From NCBI GenBank assembly GCA_021731325.1, contig JAKFXP010000086.1:1-29252 (forward strand): a stretch of DNA of 29,252 nucleotides. Reading direction: 5' to 3'. Of this stretch, positions 1,915-25,817 are shown piece after piece; position 1 is the first letter of the stretch, and every line of letters starts with the position of its first letter. The stretch comes from Parcubacteria group bacterium (GTDB lineage: Bacteria; Patescibacteriota; Minisyncoccia; Phycocordibacterales; UBA12088). A program made the translations under genes and the position numbers. The notes beneath the pieces are model-generated. The model saw only the letters and a program-made list of their open reading frames with translations, was not told the DNA's origin and made no database searches.

Positions 1915-3933
1915 ATGGATGAAGACAGTAGTGTTGATAAGCTACAAAAGCGATTATACCAATTTGGCGCAGCTCCTCAGGAGCGGTCGCGTCGGTCGTT
2001 GCACGAAGATACGACACATGACGTGGCAACCAATTGGGTAACGCAGGAAGATGTGCGTGAACAACATGCGCTTGAACAGGCACAAAGTCCTGTCTTTGGT
2101 GACTATGCGGGGTTTGAAAGTGGTATAAAAAACACCGGCACCACACCGGCACCCACTGCGCCGGCGTTCCTACGTGATGGTCGTGGGAGCAAATCAGTCA
2201 TGGAATCACGACAAAAACAACGCTCAGTGGGTAGTTGGGTACGGGGTATATTTTTGACCTCGTTAGTATTCTTCCTGCTTTCTGCAGGAGTCGCTTGGTA
2301 CTTCTTTTTCTTTGAAAGTAATCAGATATCGTGTGACAATATGGTGATAGATGTGACCGGACCACTCACGATTCCAAGTGGAAAGGAGTTGACCTTGAGT
2401 GTGGGTATGCTGAATAAAAATCCTTCCGCCGTGCAACTTGCCGAACTGGTTGTGAAATATCCTGAAGGAACCCGAAGTCCACAAGACTCAAGTATCAGTC
2501 TTACGACCGCGCGGGAACGAGTGGGAACCATAAATGCCGGCGAGCGGGTGCGTACCAGTGTCGGGGCTCTGTTGTTTGGTAAGGAGCAGACCGAGTATAC
2601 AATCGACCTCACCGTCGAATACCGTATTGACGAATCAAATGCCGTGTTTGAGTGCAAGGCTCCCTACAAGGTCATTATTGCAACGGCACCCGTCTCTCTT
2701 TCAATCACTGGTCTCGAAGAGCTCTCTTCGGGTCAAGAGCTTGAACTTACGGCGACCATGAATTCCAATTCTGATGAGACGGTACATGACCAGCGACTGG
2801 TTGCCGACTACCCTTTTGGTTTTGAGTTTGTGCGGGCTGAACCAGCACCGACTCACGGTACCAATGTGTGGGACATTGGCGATGTGGCGCCGGGGAGTAA
2901 GCGAACGGTCAAGATACAGGGTATCGTACAAGCACCAACCGTAGAGGCACGCACCATAAAGTTTCGCTTGGGTGAAAAAGATAAAGACGAAGCCTCTGAT
3001 ATTACAACGACGATGCAGCTTATTGAGCATGCGTTTGTGATTGCAAAACCATTTCTTGATCTGAGTTTGGTGGTGAACGGTAACGAGAATGCCGAAGTGC
3101 CTGCGGCGATTGGTGATACGGTGCGGGCAGTACTTAAGTGGAAAAACACCCTACCGTATGCACTCTATGATGTTGAAATTGAAGCGCTTCTCAACAGCCC
3201 ACTCATTAACCAAAAAACTATTCGAGAAGGGACGGGATATTTCCGTTCGGTTGACAATACTCTTATATGGACTGGCCAAACAGCACCAAACCTTAAAAAC
3301 ATTGGGCCGAATGCTACAGGCCAACTTGACTTTTCTTTTGCTTCGATACCCCTTACCCAAGACACAAGTGTGCGTGACCCCAATCTTACCATTGCATTTA
3401 CGGTACGTGGTCGACGCCTCTCAGACAACAAAGAAGTCTCTCAAGCGTTGGTGGCGCAGTCCAAGCGAACTATCAAGTTTGATTCGCAGCTCGCCTTTAC
3501 GACAGACGTATTGTATGCAACTGGTCCGTTTACCAACACGGGTATGCATCCTCCTATTCCGGATACCGAGACCACCTATACCGTACACTGGGCACTGGCA
3601 AACAACACCAGTGCAGTGGGAAATGTAAAGGTAACTGCTGAATTACCCATTAATGTTCGCTGGCTCGACACCATGAGTCCCGAGAGCTCGCCCCTGAGTT
3701 ACAATCCGACGACGCATATGGTAACCTGGACTCCTGGAGATGTGTCGGCCGGTACGGGGGGTAATCTACCCACTCGCGAGGTATATTTCCAGGTCGGATT
3801 CATGCCAAACATCTTTGCATCGATTGACAGTGTGACCATTGTCGAAGACCAGGTGCTGACTGGCGTTGACCAGCACACACATTCTGTGTTAGAAATACAC
3901 TCCAAAGTTCCGCGACTGATTGAAGTACAGTAG
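1915..3933 (+). CDS. Single-pass membrane protein with repeated beta-sandwich (DUF11/Ig-like) domains
   Basis: TM segment GIFLTSLVFFLLSAGVAWYFFFF, then repeats such as LPINVRW..VTWTPGDV and YPFGFEF..VWDIGDVAPG. ATG 1915 preferred over GTG 1897 because TATACT (1901-1906) lies 8 nt upstream. Confidence 0.75.
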   Translation: MDEDSSVDKLQKRLYQFGAAPQERSRRSLHEDTTHDVATNWVTQEDVREQHALEQAQSPVFGDYAGFESGIKNTGTTPAPTAPAFLRDGRGSKSVMESRQKQRSVGSWVRGIFLTSLVFFLLSAGVAWYFFFFESNQISCDNMVIDVTGPLTIPSGKELTLSVGMLNKNPSAVQLAELVVKYPEGTRSPQDSSISLTTARERVGTINAGERVRTSVGALLFGKEQTEYTIDLTVEYRIDESNAVFECKAPYKVIIATAPVSLSITGLEELSSGQELELTATMNSNSDETVHDQRLVADYPFGFEFVRAEPAPTHGTNVWDIGDVAPGSKRTVKIQGIVQAPTVEARTIKFRLGEKDKDEASDITTTMQLIEHAFVIAKPFLDLSLVVNGNENAEVPAAIGDTVRAVLKWKNTLPYALYDVEIEALLNSPLINQKTIREGTGYFRSVDNTLIWTGQTAPNLKNIGPNATGQLDFSFASIPLTQDTSVRDPNLTIAFTVRGRRLSDNKEVSQALVAQSKRTIKFDSQLAFTTDVLYATGPFTNTGMHPPIPDTETTYTVHWALANNTSAVGNVKVTAELPINVRWLDTMSPESSPLSYNPTTHMVTWTPGDVSAGTGGNLPTREVYFQVGFMPNIFASIDSVTIVEDQVLTGVDQHTHSVLEIHSKVPRLIEVQ

Positions 3934-17200: not shown

Positions 17201-18301
17201 TTATTGATCCTTGAGTTTCCCGCGTATTTCGGACAGAAGCTTTTTAGACATGGGTTTGTTTTCGCGGAGGAAGGTGCGCGACGCGTCGTAGCCACGCCCC
17301 AGTTTTTCCTCACCGTACGAGTACGAAGCACCTGATTTTTGTACCAAGCCATATTTTTCACCGAGAGCAAGAAGCTCCCCTTCGTGAGACACTCCTTCGT
17401 TATAGAGGAGGTCAAATTCGGTAGTCCGGAATGGTGGAGCGACTTTGTTTTTTACCACTTTGACGCGATGTCGTCCTCCCACCACCTCCTCACCCTTTTT
17501 GATTTGAGCGATACGTCGTATATCGAGACGTACCGAGGTGTAGAATTTGAGTGCTTTCCCTCCGGGGGTTGTTTCGGGATTGCCAAACATCACGCCAATT
17601 TGCATACGTATTTGGTTGATGAACATAACCACCGTTTTTGACCGCGCGGTAATTGCGGTGAGTTTACGCAACGCCTGACTCATGAGCCGCGCTTGTTTGC
17701 CCACATGCTGTTGGCCCATATCACCTTCGATTTCATCTCGTGGAGTGAGAGCGGCAACCGAGTCAATGACGATAATATCAATTTTTCCCGAGCGCACTAA
17801 CGATTCGACAATTTCTAGAGCTTGCTCACCATTATCAGGCTGACTTACTAGGAGTTCATCAATTTTTACCCCAATTCTACGTGCGTATTCAGGATCAAGA
17901 GCATGTTCTGCATCAATAAAAGCGCAGATACCCCCGTTTTTTTGGGCTTCGGCGACTGCATGAAGTGAAAGTGTTGTCTTACCCGATGATTCAGGTCCAA
18001 ATATCTCAATAATTCTGCCACGAGGGTAGCCGCCGATACCGAGCGCCCAATCAAGTCCGAGTGAGCCAGAGGGAATAGCATCTACATTTGTTTTTGGCTG
18101 CTGACCAAGCATCATAATCGCCTCTTCACCAAACTTGGTCTTGATAGCGCGAAGCGTCGCGTCAATCTCTGTCTTACTCTCTCCCTTACCCGCTTTTGCG
18201 GATACGGGGGTAGATTTTGCGGGGGAGATACCATCCTCCCGATCCATCTTCTCTTCTTCGGTTTCAACAGGGTTGCGTCCTTTTGGTGTTTTCTTTGCCA
18301 T
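17201..18301 (-). CDS. recA: Recombinase A
   Basis: [60 protein letters not shown]. Confidence 0.99.
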
Positions 18302-18362: not shown

Positions 18363-18719
18363 CTACATACGCATACGTTCGTCTGGTTTACCGACAAACT
18401 CAACGACGTTGCGGGTACGTTGTCCAAACCTGTTCTCAGCCTCAATGACAATGGTCGAATACCCCTCTGGAGTGACCAGTGTTTCTGAAAAAGCGCCTGA
18501 TCCATCGAGTGCGATAGGTCTTCCGTCGATGCGTACGCGGGTAACATTTTCCGCACGTCCGTCTACCGAAAGAAGAGTGTCGGTGAGCGTATCTCCCGGC
18601 TGGGGATGTGTAACGGTGAGCACCGGCCCCAGCATAAGTGTCCGTGCATTAAAAATACCGTACCCAACCGTCAGGGTTATTACGCCGAGCGCCAGAACTG
18701 CATTTATATTAGTTTTCAT
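18363..18719 (-). CDS. Small membrane-anchored Ig-like domain protein
   Basis: N-terminal TM (AVLALGVITLTVGYGIF), then beta-strand pattern VDGRAENVTRVRIDGRPI..FSETL..GYSTIVIEAENRFG. ATG 18719 overlaps the ftsK stop. Confidence 0.75.
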   Translation of the reverse strand: MKTNINAVLALGVITLTVGYGIFNARTLMLGPVLTVTHPQPGDTLTDTLLSVDGRAENVTRVRIDGRPIALDGSGAFSETLVTPEGYSTIVIEAENRFGQRTRNVVEFVGKPDERMRM

Positions 18720-21021
18720 ACTCAGTAGGGGATACTTCTCCGGTCGGAGCTTCGTCAGACGAGGATCCTCCCTCTCCACCAATTATTTCACGGGGGCGGT
18801 TGGTACCATCGGAGCTTGCAATGACTCCTCGCTGCTCAAGTTGATCCATGATACGCGCGGCGCGTCCATAGCCGACCTTAAACCGGCGTTGGATAAGTGA
18901 GGTAGAGGCTTTGCGGTCTTTCATAACCACCTCCCGCACTTCTTCGTATAATTCATCAAGATCATCACCTCCTTCACCAAAGGAGAAGCTTGGTCCTGAG
19001 GTACCGCCGTTAGTATCACCACCACTCGCAAAATCAATAATCTCAGGCAAAGAACCACCGTTATTTTTGATAATAAACGCGGTTACTTTCTTTACCTCAG
19101 CCGTCGTAAGGAATGGTGACTGAATACGGCGGGGTTTTGACATATCGCCCGAAAGGTAGAGCATATCCCCTTGACCAAGCAGTTTTTCTGCGCCCGGTTG
19201 ATCGAGAATGGTGCGAGAGTCAATCAGGGAAGCAACTTTGAGGGCGATGCGGCTCGGAATGTTTGCTTTGATGAGACCGGTAATGACATTGACCGACGGT
19301 CGCTGGGTTGAGAGAACGAGATGAATACCCACTGCACGGCTCATTTGTGCCAATCGTACAATGACCGCTTCAAGCTCGCGCGGGTAGGCGGTCATGATAT
19401 CTGCCAGCTCATCAATAAATATGACAATGTGGGGCATGAGCTCGGGCACATCAATACCCGTAATATCTTTGTCCTTTGCTTTAAGTTGTGCGATATGGGC
19501 ATGCGCGGGTGCCATGATTTCGGTATGGTAGCTCGCAATGTCTTGCACCTTGTGTTGTTGCAAGAGATCATATCGTCGCTCCATTTCCTTGATTGCCCAC
19601 TTGAGTGAGAGAATACACTTTTTTGCATCAGTAATAACCGGAGTGAGGAGGTGCGGAATACCTTCATAGAGGGTAAGTTCAACACGTTTCGGGTCAACCA
19701 TGATAAAACGGAGACGCTCAGGACCGTTTCTATATATAAGAGAGGTGATCAGTGAGTGAATCATCACTGACTTACCCGAGCCAGTGGTACCGGCAACCAG
19801 GAGGTGGGGCATTTTACTCACATTAGCGTAGTGCGCTGCCCCTGCAATATCTTTGCCAAGACTCACAAAGAGAGGAGTTGATTCGCTCGTAAATTGAGCA
19901 GAGGAGAGCAGGCCGGCGAGCCCCACGGTTGACTTGCTTGCATTAGGCACCTCAATACCGACGAGTGATTTTCCCGGAATAGGTGCTTCGATACGGATGG
20001 GGGATGCGGCAAGGGCAAGCTCAAGATTGGACTGGAGCGCTACGATCTTGGAGAGCTTCACTCCTTCGGCAGGTTTGAGAGCGTACCGAGTAACACTGGG
20101 ACCAACGACAATCTCATCCATTTCAACGGGTATCTTAAAGTGTTGCAGGGTTCGTCGAATGAGATTGGCACGCGCCTTAGTATCCCCCGCATTTGCTTTG
20201 TTACGATCCGACTCCAAGAGGGAGACCGGAGGTGCGACGTATTCGCTCGGCATCTCAAATACCGGTTTTGATCGCGCTTTCTTTTTGGAAGAGTCGGAAA
20301 AAAGCTCGACAAACTCCTGGTCAGATTCGAGCTCTTCGTCCTCGTCATCATCACTGGGTACGGGTTGTTTTTGAATGGGGAGCGATTGAGCTTCAGGAGC
20401 AGAGTCAGCCTCTTCTCCCGACACGTCCCCGTATTCGTTCTCCGTATTCGTTCCCGCGTCTTCAGGGGTTGATCGACGAAAGAGTCCTCCAGCGGTGCGC
20501 GCAAGTCCGATCCACAGCTCACTATCAAGCAGAAGAAGGAGGGATACGACGATACCACCCGCAAGCACGACGAGTGATGCGATCATATCGAGGTAGGTTA
20601 AGAGAGGGTGTGCGATAAGGTTGCCCAAATATCCCGCCCGTGATCCGGCGAGTACCCCCACCATAGCTAAGGAAGAAAGGAAAAAGAGAAACGCGCCAAC
20701 GGTGCGCACTGCCTGGAGCTGCTGTTCTTTGCCGGCGCGCATAAAGAGACCGCGCGCCCAAATAATAAGAACGACCGGAAGCAAAAAGTACCCCACTCCA
20801 ACCACAAAGTAGATGCCCCGGTAGAGTTTTTCCCCCGCAACTCCCGCCATGCCGAGTACGGCAAGTACGAGGATGATGGCAAGTACAAAGAGAAGTACTC
20901 CCCCAATCCCACGCAGAGTCTCCTCTCCAAGAGAGCCAAAAAAACCAGGAGTCTCATCCACTTCAATAATTTCCTCCACTTTCTTTTTAGTAGATTTTTT
21001 CGTCCTCTGAGCGATAGCCAT
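18709..21021 (-). CDS. ftsK: DNA translocase FtsK/SpoIIIE
   Basis: N-terminal TM domain; PHLLVAGTTGSGKS, VDPKRVEL, IFIDELAD, STQRPSV, GAEKLLGQGDML; gamma domain ASTSLIQRRFKVGYGRAARIMDQLE. ATG 21021 preferred because TACAAT lies 7 nt upstream. Confidence 0.97.
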   Translation of the reverse strand: MAIAQRTKKSTKKKVEEIIEVDETPGFFGSLGEETLRGIGGVLLFVLAIILVLAVLGMAGVAGEKLYRGIYFVVGVGYFLLPVVLIIWARGLFMRAGKEQQLQAVRTVGAFLFFLSSLAMVGVLAGSRAGYLGNLIAHPLLTYLDMIASLVVLAGGIVVSLLLLLDSELWIGLARTAGGLFRRSTPEDAGTNTENEYGDVSGEEADSAPEAQSLPIQKQPVPSDDDEDEELESDQEFVELFSDSSKKKARSKPVFEMPSEYVAPPVSLLESDRNKANAGDTKARANLIRRTLQHFKIPVEMDEIVVGPSVTRYALKPAEGVKLSKIVALQSNLELALAASPIRIEAPIPGKSLVGIEVPNASKSTVGLAGLLSSAQFTSESTPLFVSLGKDIAGAAHYANVSKMPHLLVAGTTGSGKSVMIHSLITSLIYRNGPERLRFIMVDPKRVELTLYEGIPHLLTPVITDAKKCILSLKWAIKEMERRYDLLQQHKVQDIASYHTEIMAPAHAHIAQLKAKDKDITGIDVPELMPHIVIFIDELADIMTAYPRELEAVIVRLAQMSRAVGIHLVLSTQRPSVNVITGLIKANIPSRIALKVASLIDSRTILDQPGAEKLLGQGDMLYLSGDMSKPRRIQSPFLTTAEVKKVTAFIIKNNGGSLPEIIDFASGGDTNGGTSGPSFSFGEGGDDLDELYEEVREVVMKDRKASTSLIQRRFKVGYGRAARIMDQLEQRGVIASSDGTNRPREIIGGEGGSSSDEAPTGEVSPTEYEN

Positions 21022-21170
21022 GCGCACCATTGTACCACAGGAAAGCGAGCATTCTTACCGTATACGTATCAACAGGTGCCCAATCAGCCGACACATAAAG
21101 AATGATCTCAAAAGAGGACTGAGTACCTACCAAGCCAATAACATCAATCCCGCAACACGCAGAGGCCGAA

Positions 21171-22015
21171 GAGACAACCTTGCGGACACCTGTCCATAAG
21201 ATATAGTGACCGGTACGAGAAGTGCAAAAGCAGTAAGGGTCACAGACATCAAAAAAGCCATATAAGTCAAAAACGGTATGGAACCAGAGACACATAAGGA
21301 CATTATTACCAAGGACAATCAGGCACTAAAGGGCATATACAATACATATGTCCGATTGTCATACAAGGACAAACTCCTCACGTCCTATATTATAGAAAAG
21401 ACATCGCGAGTGACCGCTGCGATACTCCTCCTCACGGCGCGTAATAAAGGACAAGACAAACTCCTCACCCAGATAGAAGAGTCAGCAGTAAGACTTGTCC
21501 TACACGCGTCCCGTGCCCATGAGTCCGATACCGAGCGAGGGCAGTTTCTTGTCGAGATTGGCACGCTTGCCGTCCTCCTCGATGTGGGGGGGCGTACCGC
21601 CCGCATGTCGCAGAGCAATGCGGAATTACTTTCTGATGAGTTGCTCGCATTCCAACGGTATGTTGGAGAAATTGAGTGGAATAGCGGAAGGAGGTTCATG
21701 GGAGGTGAACAACTGTTTGTACACAAACCAAGCCTACTCGATCTAAAGGACAATGCTTACCGGGCGGATATATCGACACAAGGACAAACAAAAGACACAG
21801 GAGCACCCCAACCCCATCAAAAAGAGACATCGTCGTATGGGACACAAGGGCAGATACAAAGGGACATTCGTCAAAGTCCAATACGTCACAATACCGAACG
21901 TATGCAAGATGCTCAAAAGGACAGACGAGCAACGATACTGGGTATGTTGCAACGCAAAGATCGTGTATCAGTGAGGGACGTGGCAAATGTCATAAAGGAC
22001 TGTAGTGAAAAGACA
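21171..22015 (+). repeat. Dispersed RRGACA / AAGGACA motif array in and upstream of the wHTH gene
   Basis: Exact AAGGACA at 21296, 21311, 21365, 21447, 21746, 21780, 21917; 15 RRGACA on the + strand within the 825-nt CDS; upstream palindrome GGACA-CC-TGTCC at 21184-21195. Confidence 0.85.
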
Positions 22016-22102
22016 CTCCAACGCGAACTCCTCGCACTAGTTGCTCAAGGTGTCCTTGTAAAAGACGGCGAACGACGATGGTCGACCTACCGGTTGGCGT
22101 AG
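21278..22102 (+). CDS. Protein with N-terminal helical domain, low-complexity linker and C-terminal DeoR-like winged HTH
   Basis: C-terminal RRATILGMLQRKDRVSVRDVANVIKDCSEKTLQRELLALVAQGVLVKDGERRWSTYRL is a wHTH pattern. Confidence 0.85.
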   Translation: MEPETHKDIITKDNQALKGIYNTYVRLSYKDKLLTSYIIEKTSRVTAAILLLTARNKGQDKLLTQIEESAVRLVLHASRAHESDTERGQFLVEIGTLAVLLDVGGRTARMSQSNAELLSDELLAFQRYVGEIEWNSGRRFMGGEQLFVHKPSLLDLKDNAYRADISTQGQTKDTGAPQPHQKETSSYGTQGQIQRDIRQSPIRHNTERMQDAQKDRRATILGMLQRKDRVSVRDVANVIKDCSEKTLQRELLALVAQGVLVKDGERRWSTYRLA

Positions 22103-22283
22103 TTGACACTATTTTATTTGCGATGTAGAGCGTGGTGTTGCAAGTAAGTACCTATTCAGCTCTTCGTCATAAGTGGCAGAGACTAGTATCTTTTTGTAAG
22201 CAATATGCTATAAAGGTGCACAGTCTGGGGTGCCTTGAGAGTAGAGTCCATAAAGAGCTTGACGCAGGGTAGGGAGTGGGTGG

Positions 22284-22292
22284 TTATCCACA
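22284..22292 (+). promoter_or_regulatory. Single perfect DnaA box
   Basis: TTATCCACA, 7 nt upstream of a putative -35 element. Confidence 0.5.
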
Positions 22293-22299
22293 CATATCT

Positions 22300-22329
22300 T
22301 TGCGTTTCAGAGCTTTTTACCTTTATAAT
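22300..22329 (+). promoter_or_regulatory. Putative distal promoter of the S-layer-like gene
   Basis: TTGCGT-N18-TATAAT. Confidence 0.5.
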
Positions 22330-22589
22330 TACCTCTGAATCTCAAGTGGCTGCAAAGTTTGTGTGGCCGCTTGGTATTTTGAAAATACAGGTACGGTTGA
22401 GGCGCGTTGTTCTTTGACAATTTCATAGAGAAAAAACACACAATTCACTGCATGACCTTGTTCTGCTGTGCTCGCGTTTGCGACGTACACATCGGTTGCT
22501 TTTGGTAGATATTTCAGTCCACATCCTTTGTCACCAACTTTCTCGTTGTGGTCGGTCGAACTCTGTCCACATTGAGGAATAAAACAAGT

Positions 22590-22854
22590 TGGTATAGTCG
22601 GGGCCTTCGCGCGCCCAAGTCGGACAAGTGCTCGCAAGAGCACTCGCCCGCCTTGGGCGCACTCGCCCGCCAATCGTTTACTATAGATGAACACCAACGT
22701 ACATCTATATGGAGTGTTGGGCGGGGAGAGGGGTCGGATTATTAACCCGCGCATCACATGCAAGTGGGGTGCGCACATATATTAGTTCTTCGGACGGGCT
22801 TATTACGTTTATAAGTAAATCTGCTCGAATGGAGAATAAACAATTAAAAATATT
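22590..22854 (+). promoter_or_regulatory. Extended -10 promoter and structured ~250-nt 5' leader of the S-layer-like gene
   Basis: TGGTATAGT (22590-22598), then stems GCGCCCAAG/CTTGGGCGC, AGTGCTC-GCAA-GAGCACT and TATAGATG/CATCTATA. Confidence 0.55.
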
Positions 22855-24939
22855 ATGACGAATAGTTTAACGCTCAACAAAGTTGCTGCTGCCGTTGTGG
22901 GAGTAGCGATGGTCGCTGGTGTCGCATTTGCTTTTTCAGCATCTCGCGCACATGCAGTAACCCTCACCGAGCTCGTAGAGCTCTTTATTGCACTCGAGGT
23001 TATCCCTGCTGATAAGGCAGACGAGGCTCGCACCGTGCTTTCAGGTCAGGAGGAGACAAACACCACCACGACTACGACTACGACCAGTTCAACGGGCGCA
23101 GCGATGACGTGTAACTTTACTCGCAACCTCAATGTTGGCGCAACTGGCGCTGATGTTATGGAGCTCCAGAAGTTCTTGAATGCAAAGGGGTACACCGTTG
23201 CAACCGCAGGTGCTGGTTCAGCAGGTATGGAGAGTCAGTACTTTGGTCCAGCTACCAAGGGTGCAGTTGCAAAGATGCAGACCGCATTCGCAGCTGAGAT
23301 TCTTGCACCACTTGGTCTTACGACCGGTACCGGATTCTTTGGTGCTGCAACTCGCGCAAAGGCAAACACGCTTTGCGCAGCTACAACTCCAGAAGTTCCT
23401 GCAGGTGATGATGACGACGATGATGACACCACCGGTGACGATGATGACGACACCGACCTTTCAGGCGGCGAGGCATCACTCGAGGACTTTAGCCGCTCAA
23501 GCTCTCCTTCAGCTGTAGATGTTGCTGAGGATGAGGAAGAGGTACAGGTAGCAGGTTTTGAGTTTGACGTAAACGATGCTGACGCTGCTATCAAGCGCGT
23601 TGATGTTCGTTTCGAGACTACTACCGTTGCTCCTGCATCAAACAAGCCTTACGATTACTTCGAGTCAGTCCAGCTTCTTCTCGATGGCGAGCAGATCGCC
23701 GAAGTAGACGCTAGCGCAAAGGCAGACTGGGAGGACATCACTGGCAATGCATGGGAACTCAGCTTCACCGATCTCGATGAGAAGGTGAGTGCAGATGACG
23801 TTGCAAAGCTTGTTATCGCAGTGACGACCCAAGGTTCACTTGATACCGATGATGAGGCTACTACTTGGAACGTCTGGATTCCAAATGATGGTATCCGCGC
23901 ACGCGATGGTGCTGGCATTGATCAGTATGTTGGCGATGCAGATCTTCTTGCAAGTGCTGCAGAGGAGCGCACCTTCGACACTGAAGGTGCAGGTCAGGGT
24001 GAAGAACTTAAGGTTTCTCTCTCAACCAGCAATCCTGATGCATCAACCATCAAGGTGGACGAGGATAACTCAACTGACGATGTTACGATACTCACCTTCG
24101 AATTGAAGGCAGAGGAGAGCGACATTGAGATCACTGAGCTCCCTATCCGCTTCGATATCGGATCGGACTTCTTCGATCAGGTCGTAAGTGATGTTACTCT
24201 TGATGTTGATGGTACTATCTACGACGACTTTACTACGCAGAACGGTGCTACCGCTATAGCTTCCACCACCTTTACGTTCGACACCGGTGACTTTGTTATC
24301 GATGCGGACTCAAAGGTAACAGTGAAGGTCATCGTTGACCTCCTCAAGCTTACGGGCAATTACGATGGTGGTGACACTATCGCAGCATCGCTCAACGACA
24401 TTGAGGTAGATGCCATTGATGCAGAAGGTGCAGACACCATCGCTGCTGCTGACCTTACAGGTACTGCAGTAGGTGAGACACACACACTTCAGAGCTCAGG
24501 CATCTTCGCAGAAATTGAGACGATTACTGAGACAAGTAAGTCTGATGGTACCAACGATGATGCTGTCGGTGAGTTCAAGTTCAAGTTTGACTTGACCGCA
24601 TTTGACGACACCTTCTATGTGAGCGCAACGAACACGGCAGCATACAGCTTCACGGTTCTTGACTCCACTGGTGCTGCTTCAACAACACTGACTTCAGCCG
24701 CTTCAGCTGCAATCACTTCGACTGCAACTCAGGTTGGTGATGCGTTCCGTGTTGACGAAGGTGAGACCGAGAGCTTCACGCTCACACTTACGGTTGATCC
24801 AGGTATGGTAGGCAACGTACGCGCACGAATCAATAGTGTTGATTTCGGTAGTCTCTCAACCGCACCGTTGAATCAGACTGCACACACTGTTGCACCTGCT
24901 GAAGACTTCCGTTCTGATTTCCTCTACCTCAACAACTAA
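22855..24939 (+). CDS. S-layer-like secreted protein with peptidoglycan-binding-like domain
   Basis: Signal peptide ending AHA; PG_binding_1-like FTRNLNVGATGADVMELQKFLN..YFGPATKGAVAKMQ; very acidic, Thr/Ala-rich beta-strand body; AT-rich translation initiation region; strong terminator. Confidence 0.8.
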   Translation: MTNSLTLNKVAAAVVGVAMVAGVAFAFSASRAHAVTLTELVELFIALEVIPADKADEARTVLSGQEETNTTTTTTTTSSTGAAMTCNFTRNLNVGATGADVMELQKFLNAKGYTVATAGAGSAGMESQYFGPATKGAVAKMQTAFAAEILAPLGLTTGTGFFGAATRAKANTLCAATTPEVPAGDDDDDDDTTGDDDDDTDLSGGEASLEDFSRSSSPSAVDVAEDEEEVQVAGFEFDVNDADAAIKRVDVRFETTTVAPASNKPYDYFESVQLLLDGEQIAEVDASAKADWEDITGNAWELSFTDLDEKVSADDVAKLVIAVTTQGSLDTDDEATTWNVWIPNDGIRARDGAGIDQYVGDADLLASAAEERTFDTEGAGQGEELKVSLSTSNPDASTIKVDEDNSTDDVTILTFELKAEESDIEITELPIRFDIGSDFFDQVVSDVTLDVDGTIYDDFTTQNGATAIASTTFTFDTGDFVIDADSKVTVKVIVDLLKLTGNYDGGDTIAASLNDIEVDAIDAEGADTIAAADLTGTAVGETHTLQSSGIFAEIETITETSKSDGTNDDAVGEFKFKFDLTAFDDTFYVSATNTAAYSFTVLDSTGAASTTLTSAASAAITSTATQVGDAFRVDEGETESFTLTLTVDPGMVGNVRARINSVDFGSLSTAPLNQTAHTVAPAEDFRSDFLYLNN

Positions 24940-25133: not shown

Positions 25134-25817
25134 ATGGGATATATGGCATCCGTACCTCGAACAGATGTTGGAGGATTGATATACCATGCGTGGAACCGTG
25201 GTAACGCTAGGGGCACTCTATTTATTACTGATAGCGATTATTTTGCGTTCGAGAACCTTATATCCGAAGCAAAAATCATTACCGGTATGCGCATTATTGC
25301 GTACACGATAATGCCCAACCATTGGCATTTTGTACTACATCCTGCAAAAGACGGTGACTTAGCACGTTTTTTTCATTGGCTCGTGGCAACACACACCAAA
25401 CGGTGGCATGTGGTGCGAAAATCGACCGGGCAAGGGCACATTTACCAAGGTACCTACAAATCAAATCTATGTGAACATAACAAACACTTTTTGCAGCTAG
25501 TGCGGTATGTTGAACGAAATGCGTTACGAGCAAATCTCGTGTCTCGAGCAGAAGAGTGGCGATGGTCAAGTGCATGGAGACGTGTGTACGGTACTGATGC
25601 TCAAAAAAGTATGATGGGTGACTGGCCTGTGGAAATGCCACGCACGTATCTGGAAACACTTAACACATCACAAAACAAAGAAGAGTTGGATGCGATACGA
25701 TACGCCCTCCGGAGAGGGAGTCCGTACGGTTCGGATTTTTGGAAAGGTTCGATGGTCGACAGGTATGGTCTCGAAGCAACAATACGGCAGCCAGGCCGCC
25801 CAAAAAAACTACCCTAA
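25134..25817 (+). mobile_element. REP-associated tyrosine transposase (RAYT / IS200-like Y1 HUH)
   Basis: YHAWNRGNAR..LF...DY, AYTIMPNHWHFVL (HUH), GHIYQGTYKS, VRYVERNALRANLV..AEEWRWSS. Confidence 0.92.

What the first reader, a model, noticed from the sequence alone, without database searches (positions are those of the whole stretch)
21171..22102. wHTH gene carrying its own DNA motif array, head-to-head with ftsK: candidate iteron/centromere-like system
The CDS has 7 exact AAGGACA (about 0.05 expected in 825 nt at uniform base frequency) and 15 RRGACA on the + strand (about 0.8 expected). The motif occurs in two frames (AAG GAC = KD five times; AAA/CAA GGA CAA = KGQ/QGQ twice), forces an AGA Arg codon at 21923, and continues into the non-coding ftsK-side spacer, including GGACA-CC-TGTCC (21184-21195). 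This points to selection on DNA rather than protein. Copies cluster in two blocks (21287-21501 and 21746-22015), mostly outside or at the edges of the folded domains. Known analogies: lambda O and repABC RepC have origins inside their own genes; TubR/tubC and ParB/parS use repeat arrays. Hypothesis: the wHTH protein binds this array as an autoregulatory, replication or chromosome-segregation/terminus landmark working with FtsK. I know no description of this; that needs a literature check.
Basis: partly seen in the sequence, partly recalled or inferred. Interest (0 to 1): 0.85.

Follow-up and report, generated by a model that had tools for sequence, protein, structure and literature searches.

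The report
Regulator gene carrying its own operators
An uncharacterised DNA-binding protein gene next to ftsK in an ultra-small Patescibacteria bacterium carries about twenty copies of one short DNA word in its promoter and its own codons; these are most likely the protein's own binding sites, and the same word also marks the chromosome's centromere/origin region.

Summary
The 825-nt gene holds 7 AAGGACA; the whole 984-kb genome holds 95 on both strands, and no other 825-nt stretch holds more than 2. The excess survives synonymous shuffling, both here and in 77 orthologues (z about 18). The word is written in three reading frames and continues into non-coding DNA. The full motif is TAAARGACA.

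It forms two blocks. One covers the promoter, leader and first codons. The other covers the codons of the disordered linker. A GGACA-NN-TGTCC palindrome lies between the -35 and -10 boxes of the gene's own promoter.

Distant homologues with a different recognition helix carry a different word in the same two blocks. This supports the protein reading its own gene, most likely for autoregulation.

The array is not a replication origin or terminus mark. The GC-skew minimum lies about 100 kb away (one genome resolved). However, the same word, and the variant word in the variant lineage, clusters beside parS. It also flanks a single-copy DnaA box at or within a few kb of the skew minimum in the genome that resolves it.

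This scan has found the same system before on other DNA (e1-719144, e1-1025948, e1-5216929 and others). My literature searches found no published description.

The parts
18709..21030 (-). ftsK (773 aa), divergent neighbour; recA lies behind it at 17201-18301
   Evidence: Pfam FtsK_SpoIIIE, FtsK_alpha and FtsK_gamma. FtsK sits upstream on the opposite strand in 76 of the 77 orthologue loci with a called wHTH gene (80 fetched), and RecA is found in 66.
21180..21207 (+). Inferred promoter of the wHTH gene: TTGCGG, 16 nt, TATAGT. The GGACA-CC-TGTCC palindrome (21184-21195) sits in the spacer and acts as the operator.
   Evidence: The layout TTGC-RGACA-NN-TGTCY-N6-TATAnT, about 70 nt before the ATG, recurs in the close orthologues L002, L003, L005 and L007. 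Of the 14 orthologues inspected, several distant ones (L012, L021, L033, L047, L072) also carry a site in the spacer. The transcription start site has not been measured.
21168..21458 (+). Block A of sense-oriented TAAARGACA-like sites. Sites end at 21176, 21188, 21248, 21292, 21302, 21317, 21371, 21403, 21453 and 21458. The block covers the promoter, the roughly 63-nt leader and codons 3-61.
   Evidence: Site list. Motif density in 78 loci peaks from -120 to +40 relative to the start codon.
21278..22102 (+). wHTH gene, 274 aa: Avd/S23-IVS-like four-helix bundle (about residues 20-140), disordered linker (161-201), C-terminal winged helix (203-274)
   Evidence: AlphaFold2 model, mean pLDDT 78. 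Fold matches 2rld, 8ub7_B, 2gsc and 4dwl at Z 12.9-13.6, and ArsR/MecI/Zalpha-type winged helices at Z 9-10.6. Pfam HTH_DeoR scores 18.8 bits, below its cut-off of 21. 250 homologues were found, most without a name and a few auto-annotated as ArsR-family regulators.
21744..22015 (+). Block B of sense-oriented sites. Sites end at 21752, 21786, 21797, 21829, 21844, 21866, 21923 and 22015. Most lie in the linker codons.
   Evidence: A second density peak lies at +460 to +650 in 78 loci. The GGA-CAx site at residue 169 is present in 49 of 76 orthologues.
21191..21199 (-). Antisense half-site forming the promoter palindrome. Further antisense sites lie at 21496-21504 and 22051-22059.
   Evidence: Across orthologues, antisense TGTCC occurs 155 times against 48 after synonymous permutation, z 17.5.
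22284..22335 (+). Perfect DnaA box TTATCCACA (22284-22292), followed by TTTGCG, 17 nt and a TATAAT-like box: the promoter of the long leader of the downstream surface-protein gene (22855-24939)
   Evidence: The same 9-mer, always on the + strand, lies 19-521 nt after the wHTH stop codon in 66 of 78 loci (65 orthologues plus this window). The whole set of loci holds 79 perfect boxes where about 5.6 are expected by chance. The next long ORF starts a median 460 nt later. Its link to the wHTH system is unproven.

Best explanation
The gene encodes a DNA-binding protein specific to Patescibacteria (class Paceibacteria). It has an Avd-like four-helix bundle that probably oligomerises, a flexible linker, and an almost invariant C-terminal winged helix. 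The protein recognises the 9-bp word TAAARGACA as double-stranded DNA. It binds an inverted pair of half-sites between the -35 and -10 boxes of its own promoter. It also binds two arrays of mostly same-oriented sites: one in the leader and first codons, the other about 500 bp downstream in the linker codons. Together these throttle its own synthesis by promoter occlusion, helped by cooperative binding, looping or roadblock between the two arrays. They possibly also throttle the divergent ftsK-recA unit. Because the sites must sit in coding DNA, they have shaped the protein, producing recurrent K-D-x, K-G-Q/H and K-T residues. The protein's other conserved targets lie in the origin-proximal region, beside parS and around a single-copy DnaA box, so its cellular job probably concerns chromosome replication or segregation. 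Shown: the enrichment, selection at the DNA level, conservation, the promoter position of the palindrome, covariation of motif with recognition helix, and co-location with parS. Inferred: binding by this protein, repression, the oligomeric state, and any role at the origin.
For: 1. Local uniqueness.
2. The excess survives synonymous permutation here. In 77 orthologues AAGGACA occurs 171 times against 52.6 expected (z 18.6), and RGACA 517 times against 279 (z 18.4). Flanking DNA predicts only 7.5 AAGGACA.
3. Codon choice depends on context. Asp after K/R and before a codon starting with A is GAC in 88% of cases against 49% elsewhere. Gly before Q/H is GGA in 77% against 27%. The motif sits in all three reading frames at conserved alignment columns.
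4. The array runs into non-coding DNA: 2.45 sense sites per 100 nt just upstream of the start codon, against about 0.1 background.
5. The palindrome or a single site lies in the -35/-10 spacer.
6. Covariation: homologue L170 has the recognition helix DRTLRNDIRQL and carries ATCCGGCAAT 16 times sense and 7 times antisense, in the same two blocks. L156 carries TCGGCAA/TTGCCGA and L166 carries AATGGACA.
7. The variant word also clusters 130-300 nt from five parS sites in that genome.
8. In this lineage the motif lies beside parS and a DnaA box: G000 C29, G001 at 202-206 kb where the GC-skew minimum is 205,693, and G002 at 22-27 kb. In at least 13 of 30 genomes with a strict parS, a strict motif pair lies within 5 kb of it.
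9. The winged-helix fold is of the dsDNA-binding ArsR/MecI kind.
Against: There is no binding, expression or transcription-start data. Promoter assignments are consensus-based, and the simple scanner did not call the wHTH promoter. The strong bias towards the sense strand, even in the non-coding leader (2.45 against 0.56 per 100 nt), is not explained by a flexible multivalent DNA binder and would fit an RNA-level signal. Orthologues are related, so the z-scores overstate independence. Outside the own gene and the parS region, no clear regulon was seen in this incomplete genome. The Avd-like match (Z about 13) lies within the range that helical bundles reach by chance.
Confidence: 0.7

Rival explanations
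1. The in-gene array is itself a chromosome landmark, for example a secondary centromere, a condensin or ParB-accessory loading site, or a titration sink for the protein comparable to datA for DnaA. On this view its main purpose is not to control the gene's expression.
For: It is the densest cluster of the motif in the genome. The two-block layout is kept even where the word changes. The locus lies 34-83 kb from dnaA in five genomes; measured against the GC-skew minimum it is about 100 kb (roughly 14% of the chromosome) away in G001, the one genome resolved. The same word marks the parS/DnaA-box region.
Against: A site in the -35/-10 spacer is the classic position for a repressor. Nothing shows a segregation ATPase or other partner specific to this locus. 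ParB/parS exists separately.
Confidence: 0.15
2. The motif acts in the mRNA, as a row of sense-strand sites in the leader and coding sequence bound by an RNA-binding factor. This would control translation or stability.
For: There is a strong sense-strand bias, including in the non-coding leader. Spacing peaks at 11-16 nt without strict phasing.
Against: Sites and the palindrome lie upstream of the inferred transcription start. Antisense copies are also enriched, z 14-17. The parS-side clusters lie between convergent genes and mix both orientations. No Rfam family matches. The encoded domain is a dsDNA-type winged helix.
Confidence: 0.08
3. The array is a replication origin with iterons inside the initiator's own gene, like lambda O or repABC RepC.
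For: It has direct repeats, an inverted-repeat operator in the promoter, and a perfect DnaA box 181 nt after the stop codon.
Against: In G001 the GC-skew minimum and the gene-strand switch lie about 100-118 kb from the gene; in G002 the minimum is a broad plateau that leaves the distance at 62-130 kb. The DnaA box is positioned as a promoter element, 6-8 nt before a -35 box. There is no Rep-type fold. dnaA is present.
Confidence: 0.04
4. The excess is a by-product of protein sequence or composition, that is, K-D or K-G-Q peptide repeats or low-complexity linker.
For: The amino-acid sequence alone predicts 2.5 AAGGACA, far above the 0.04 expected genome-wide.
Against: The excess survives synonymous permutation. 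It uses three reading frames, shows context-dependent codon choice, and continues into non-coding DNA.
Confidence: 0.02

Closest known systems
Iteron-plasmid Rep initiators (RepA of pPS10, RepE of F, pi of R6K); own knowledge and review PMC4980987, found
   Same: A winged-helix protein with an inverted-repeat operator in its own promoter, same-oriented repeats of the same word, and DnaA boxes nearby.
   Different: The gene is not at the replication origin. The protein has one winged helix behind an Avd-like bundle, not the WH1-WH2 pair. It is chromosomal and conserved across a bacterial class, and its repeats are written into its own codons.
Multi-operator looping repressors with an operator inside coding DNA (DeoR O1-O3, LacI O2 in lacZ, GalR OI in galE); own knowledge
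   Same: Two operator clusters a few hundred bp apart, one of them inside a gene. The regulator is oligomeric. There is a weak Pfam DeoR-type HTH signal.
   Different: There are tens of half-sites rather than two or three operators. The sites lie inside the regulator's own gene. There is no sugar-phosphate sensor domain.
Dual operator/centromere repeat binders (omega of pSM19035 with heptad arrays, ParR-parC, AspA of pNOB8, TubR-tubC); own knowledge, with AspA and TubR among the fold hits
   Same: Short repeats in direct and inverted order serve a small DNA-binding protein that both represses its own promoter and marks DNA for segregation. The winged helix resembles those of AspA and TubR.
   Different: No dedicated partition ATPase or tubulin is encoded nearby. 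Omega and ParR are ribbon-helix-helix proteins. A centromere role here is only suggested by closeness to parS.
ParB (Spo0J) with a parS site inside its own gene in Bacillus subtilis; own knowledge
   Same: A binding site for a chromosome-organising protein embedded in that protein's own coding sequence, in the origin-proximal part of the chromosome.
   Different: ParB has one palindrome, not an array. This protein has no ParB N-terminal domain, and ParB is encoded elsewhere in this genome.
Avd / S23-IVS four-helix-bundle proteins (PDB 4dwl, 8ub7, 2rld, 2gsc)
   Same: They are the best structural matches to residues 20-140 (Z 12.9-13.6). 2rld and 2gsc were each deposited with at least five chains; that Avd-type bundles form homopentamers is own knowledge.
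   Different: There is no sequence-profile match, and the Z values lie in the range that helical bundles reach by chance. Avd proteins have no fused winged helix and work with a reverse transcriptase.

Membership tests
DeoR-type HTH (Pfam PF08220) | Profile score at or above the curated cut-off | tested here: not met
   18.8 bits against a cut-off of 21, E 0.0013, residues 216-262. Precomputed PF08220 hits appear on a few homologues.
ArsR/MecI-like winged helix fold | Three-helix core plus a beta-hairpin wing that superposes on solved members | tested here: met
   Residues 203-274 align to CadC, SrnR, AntR, MecI and Zalpha with rmsd 1.1-2.1 A over about 60 residues, Z 9-10.6.
Iteron-plasmid Rep initiators | Tandem WH1-WH2 fold (Rep_3-type domain) | tested here: not met
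   No Pfam or NCBIfam hit. The model shows a helical bundle plus a single winged helix.
Iteron-plasmid Rep initiators | Repeats lie at the site where replication starts | tested here: not met
   In G001 the GC-skew minimum is at 205,693 and the gene lies at about 103 kb. In G002 the minimum is a plateau from 590 kb to 40 kb and the gene lies at 528 kb. This is a computational proxy only.
Iteron-plasmid Rep initiators | Inverted repeat of the iteron word in the initiator's own promoter | tested here: met
   GGACA-CC-TGTCC at 21184-21195 lies between TTGCGG and TATAGT, and this is conserved in close orthologues.
ParB/parS centromere proteins | ParB N-terminal domain (PF02195) in the protein | tested here: not met
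   The domain is absent from this protein. A separate ParB gene lies at G000:C23.
Avd / S23-IVS four-helix bundle (PF05635) | Sequence-profile match and homopentamer formation | tested here: inconclusive
   The top four structural hits are all from this family, Z 12.9-13.6. There is no Pfam or PDB profile hit. The oligomeric state cannot be tested with these tools.
Autoregulated repressor | The protein binds an operator overlapping its own promoter and lowers transcription | not testable with these tools
   Only the position of the site and the covariation of motif with recognition helix are available.

The most novel reading that the evidence does not exclude
This protein family is a Patescibacteria-specific cell-cycle factor. 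A multivalent protein, possibly pentameric through its Avd-like bundle, binds around the single-copy DnaA box and beside parS to gate replication initiation or ParB loading. The very large site array written into its own gene, which lies about 100 kb (roughly 14% of the chromosome) from the skew-inferred origin in the one genome that resolves it, would act as a gene-dosage-coupled titration sink. That sink would reset the free protein level soon after each round of replication begins.
Probability: 0.2. Interest if true: 0.85.

Novelty: new variant of a known kind. Interest (0 to 1): 0.62.

Why it matters
Almost nothing is known about how the ultra-small, mostly uncultivated Patescibacteria control gene expression, replication and chromosome segregation. 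This work yields a conserved protein family, an inferred 9-bp recognition word, a predicted operator, and a small set of predicted chromosomal targets next to parS and a DnaA box. All of these can be tested directly with recombinant protein and synthetic DNA. It is also an unusually clear case of a DNA-binding-site array constraining the amino-acid sequence of the protein that reads it. Finally, it offers comparative markers for locating origins and centromeres in these genomes.

Tried and rejected
- Protein-repeat or composition artefact: rejected by synonymous permutation and codon-context tests.
- Shine-Dalgarno-like AAGGA pausing sites: rejected because the conserved core is GACA, and AAAAGACA variants are equally common.
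- KOPS or Chi-like polar genome words: rejected because the word is neither frequent nor strand-skewed genome-wide, 48 against 47.
- dif site or terminus landmark: rejected because the composite element and the gene lie on the origin side.
- Known RNA families: none in 20900-22900 or at the parS-side loci.
- Other GGACA-NN-TGTCC palindromes in this genome (C30, C37, C125): none has a promoter context.
- Pfam, NCBIfam, a PDB sequence-profile search and the ESM Atlas gave no named relative for the N-terminal domain.
- Three literature searches found no description of this family or motif.
- A possible ftsK promoter on the minus strand (21227-21198) overlapping the wHTH promoter was seen in this sequence only and was not tested in orthologues.

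Full report
**Setting**

The window is contig C1 of a 984-kb, 139-contig Patescibacteria (Paceibacteria/Parcubacteria) genome (the organism is named by its homologues). The gene order is efp, recA (17201-18301, minus strand), ftsK (18709-21030, minus strand), then the divergent 274-aa gene at 21278-22102. After that come a long non-coding stretch and a 694-aa protein gene with a peptidoglycan-binding domain.

**Observation**

- The gene holds 7 of the window's 8 AAGGACA.
- The whole genome has 95 on both strands, and no other 825-nt stretch has more than 2.
- Keeping the protein and shuffling synonymous codons within the gene gives a mean of 2.5 AAGGACA (P about 0.001) and 6.9 RRGACA against 15 observed (P about 0.0001).

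So the protein sequence explains part of the excess, but not all of it.

**Orthologues**

Eighty loci from species-representative genomes were fetched, with GC content from 31% to 60%.
- In the 77 with a called gene, AAGGACA occurs 171 times. Flanking DNA predicts 7.5, and synonymous permutation predicts 52.6 (z 18.6).
- RGACA occurs 517 times against 279 expected.
- The antisense TGTCC occurs 155 times against 48 expected.
- Codon choice depends on context. Asp after K/R and before a codon starting with A is GAC in 88% of cases, against 49% elsewhere. Gly before Q/H is GGA in 77%, against 27%. Thr after an xAG or xGG codon is ACA in 58%, against 32%.
- The word is written in all three reading frames at conserved alignment columns. 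The best-kept single site is GGA-CAx (G-Q/H) in the linker, present in 49 of 76 orthologues.
- The extended consensus is T-A-A-A-R-G-A-C-A.

Selection acts on the DNA. Orthologues are related, so the z-scores overstate independence. However, at 30-40% protein identity, synonymous positions should carry no inherited signal.

**Anatomy**

Motif density in 78 loci forms two blocks and is at background elsewhere.
- Block A runs from about -120 to +40 relative to the start codon, covering the promoter, leader and first codons.
- Block B runs from about +460 to +650, in the linker codons.

In this window and its close relatives the layout is TTGC-RGACA-NN-TGTCY-N6-TATAnT, about 70 nt before the ATG. 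Several of the distant orthologues inspected also keep a site in the spacer. Spacing between neighbouring sites peaks at 11-16 nt, with no strict period.

**Protein**

AlphaFold2 (mean pLDDT 78) predicts a helical bundle, a disordered linker (161-201) and a C-terminal winged helix.
- The winged helix matches ArsR, CadC, MecI and Zalpha-type domains.
- The bundle's four best matches are all Avd/S23-IVS four-helix bundles (2rld, 8ub7_B, 2gsc, 4dwl; Z 12.9-13.6). 2rld and 2gsc were each deposited with at least five chains, and Avd-type bundles are known to me as homopentamers. That Z range can also arise by chance for helical bundles.
- Pfam gives only a sub-threshold HTH_DeoR hit.
- The family is uncharacterised.
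- It is found in 73 of 201 sampled genomes of the class.
- It sits head-to-head with ftsK-recA in 76 of 77 loci.

**Who binds the word?**

The winged helix is almost invariant in this lineage, and so is the word. More distant homologues were therefore examined.
- One, with the recognition helix DRTLRNDIRQL in place of EKTLQRELLAL, carries ATCCGGCAAT 16 times sense and 7 times antisense. These lie in the same two blocks, and the linker there is written as repeated R-Q-S-G-N.
- Another carries TCGGCAA/TTGCCGA.
- Another carries AATGGACA.
- Two with a helix closer to this one keep TAAAGGACA.

This covariation is the main evidence that the protein reads the array in its own gene.

**Other targets**

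Elsewhere in this genome the motif clusters at only one other locus. That locus is C29, between the convergent genes cca and xth.
- At C29:3229-3270, two direct sites, a perfect DnaA box (TGTGGATAA) and an inverted site form a composite element.
- The genome's only two parS palindromes lie at C29:1295 and C29:2741.
- The strict composite pattern is single-copy in 19 of 151 genomes of the order. It never occurs in the reversed control. In most of the 12 loci inspected it lies between cca and xth.

In the complete 721-kb genome G001:
- the cumulative GC-skew minimum is at 205,693;
- parS lies at 205,500 and 205,643;
- motif sites lie at 205,359-205,628;
- the composite lies at 202,273-202,335;
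- the wHTH gene lies at about 103 kb, and dnaA at 172 kb.

G002 gives the same picture with a broader skew minimum.

In a sample of 61 genomes of the order, 30 have a strict parS. In at least 13 of those, a strict direct motif pair lies within 5 kb of it. At an assumed chance rate of 5% per genome, the binomial P is about 7e-10.

In the variant lineage, the variant word clusters 130-300 nt from five perfect parS sites spaced 48 bp apart. The parS-side sites therefore change in step with the protein too. ParB is encoded separately in all five genomes checked.

**Interpretation**

The best-supported reading is an autoregulated winged-helix protein. Its operator is an inverted pair in the promoter spacer, reinforced by two arrays of extra sites, one of them inside the coding sequence.
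- The array is not an origin. In the genome with a sharp GC-skew minimum (G001) it lies about 100 kb away; G002's broad minimum does not resolve the distance.
- It is not a terminus mark.
- It is not explained by protein repeats.
- An RNA-level role is unlikely. Sites lie upstream of the inferred transcription start, antisense copies are enriched, and the parS-side clusters mix orientations between convergent genes. No Rfam family matches.

What remains unexplained is the strong preference for the sense orientation, even in the non-coding leader. Why a second block is kept about 500 bp downstream in every lineage is also open. Looping, roadblock, or a titration sink tied to gene dosage are all possible.

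**What is known already**

My three literature searches found no paper describing this family or word.

This scan has met the same system repeatedly on other genomes: e1-719144 (a TATAAAGGACA 11-mer), e1-5216929 (AAAGGACA boxes), e1-885904, e1-1025948 (clusters in a hub with DnaA boxes and parS), and e1-839458, e1-869611 and e1-1315287 (other words). My tests were run independently on this window and agree with those reports. As far as the short notes I could read show, this report goes beyond them in several respects:
- the covariation extends to the parS-side cluster;
- the DnaA-box composite is single-copy;
- in one complete genome the parS-side motif cluster (205,359-205,628) sits at the GC-skew minimum, with the DnaA-box composite about 3.4 kb away;
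- the parS co-location is quantified.

Noticed in passing
window 22284-22335, and 65 orthologue loci among L001-L080: A perfect DnaA box TTATCCACA, always on the strand of the wHTH gene, lies 19-521 nt after its stop codon in 66 of 78 loci (65 orthologues plus this window). It sits 6-8 nt before a TTTGC-type -35 box and a TATAAT box. This promoter heads a leader of about 400 nt before a large secreted or surface protein gene (here 22855-24939). It may couple surface-protein expression to DnaA.
   Followed up: partly
G000 contig C29:1295-3270 (outside the window): The origin-proximal hub of this genome. It holds the genome's only two parS palindromes (1295, 2741), two in-frame ATAAAGGACA copies inside cca (1659, 1683), and a composite of wHTH sites around a perfect DnaA box (3229-3270), between the convergent genes cca and xth.
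   Followed up: partly
window 21198-21227, minus strand: A possible ftsK promoter (TTGCAC, 18 nt, TATCTT) lies face to face with the wHTH promoter. This would put the GGACA-CC-TGTCC palindrome near the ftsK transcription start. Seen in this sequence only.
   Followed up: no
window 22329-22778, minus strand: A 149-aa ORF with no Pfam hit overlaps the conserved leader of the downstream gene on the opposite strand. It is probably not a gene.
   Followed up: no
window 22342-22384: A hairpin of 13 pairs followed by a T-run lies within about 10 nt of the inferred start of the DnaA-box promoter's transcript. It could be an attenuator or the end of a very short RNA.
   Followed up: no
L172 (G249:C3), locus positions 3046-3254: Five perfect 16-bp parS sites at an exact 48-bp period in a distant Paceibacteria genome, directly beside the variant-motif cluster.
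   Followed up: partly
G001 (complete genome), 172 kb against 206 kb: dnaA lies about 34 kb from the GC-skew minimum and 49 kb from the gene-strand switch. In these genomes the origin is therefore probably not next to dnaA.
   Followed up: partly
window 25134-25817: An IS200/Y1-type transposase gene (Pfam Y1_Tnp, E 6e-10). It is also present near the locus in 5 of the orthologue loci.
   Followed up: no
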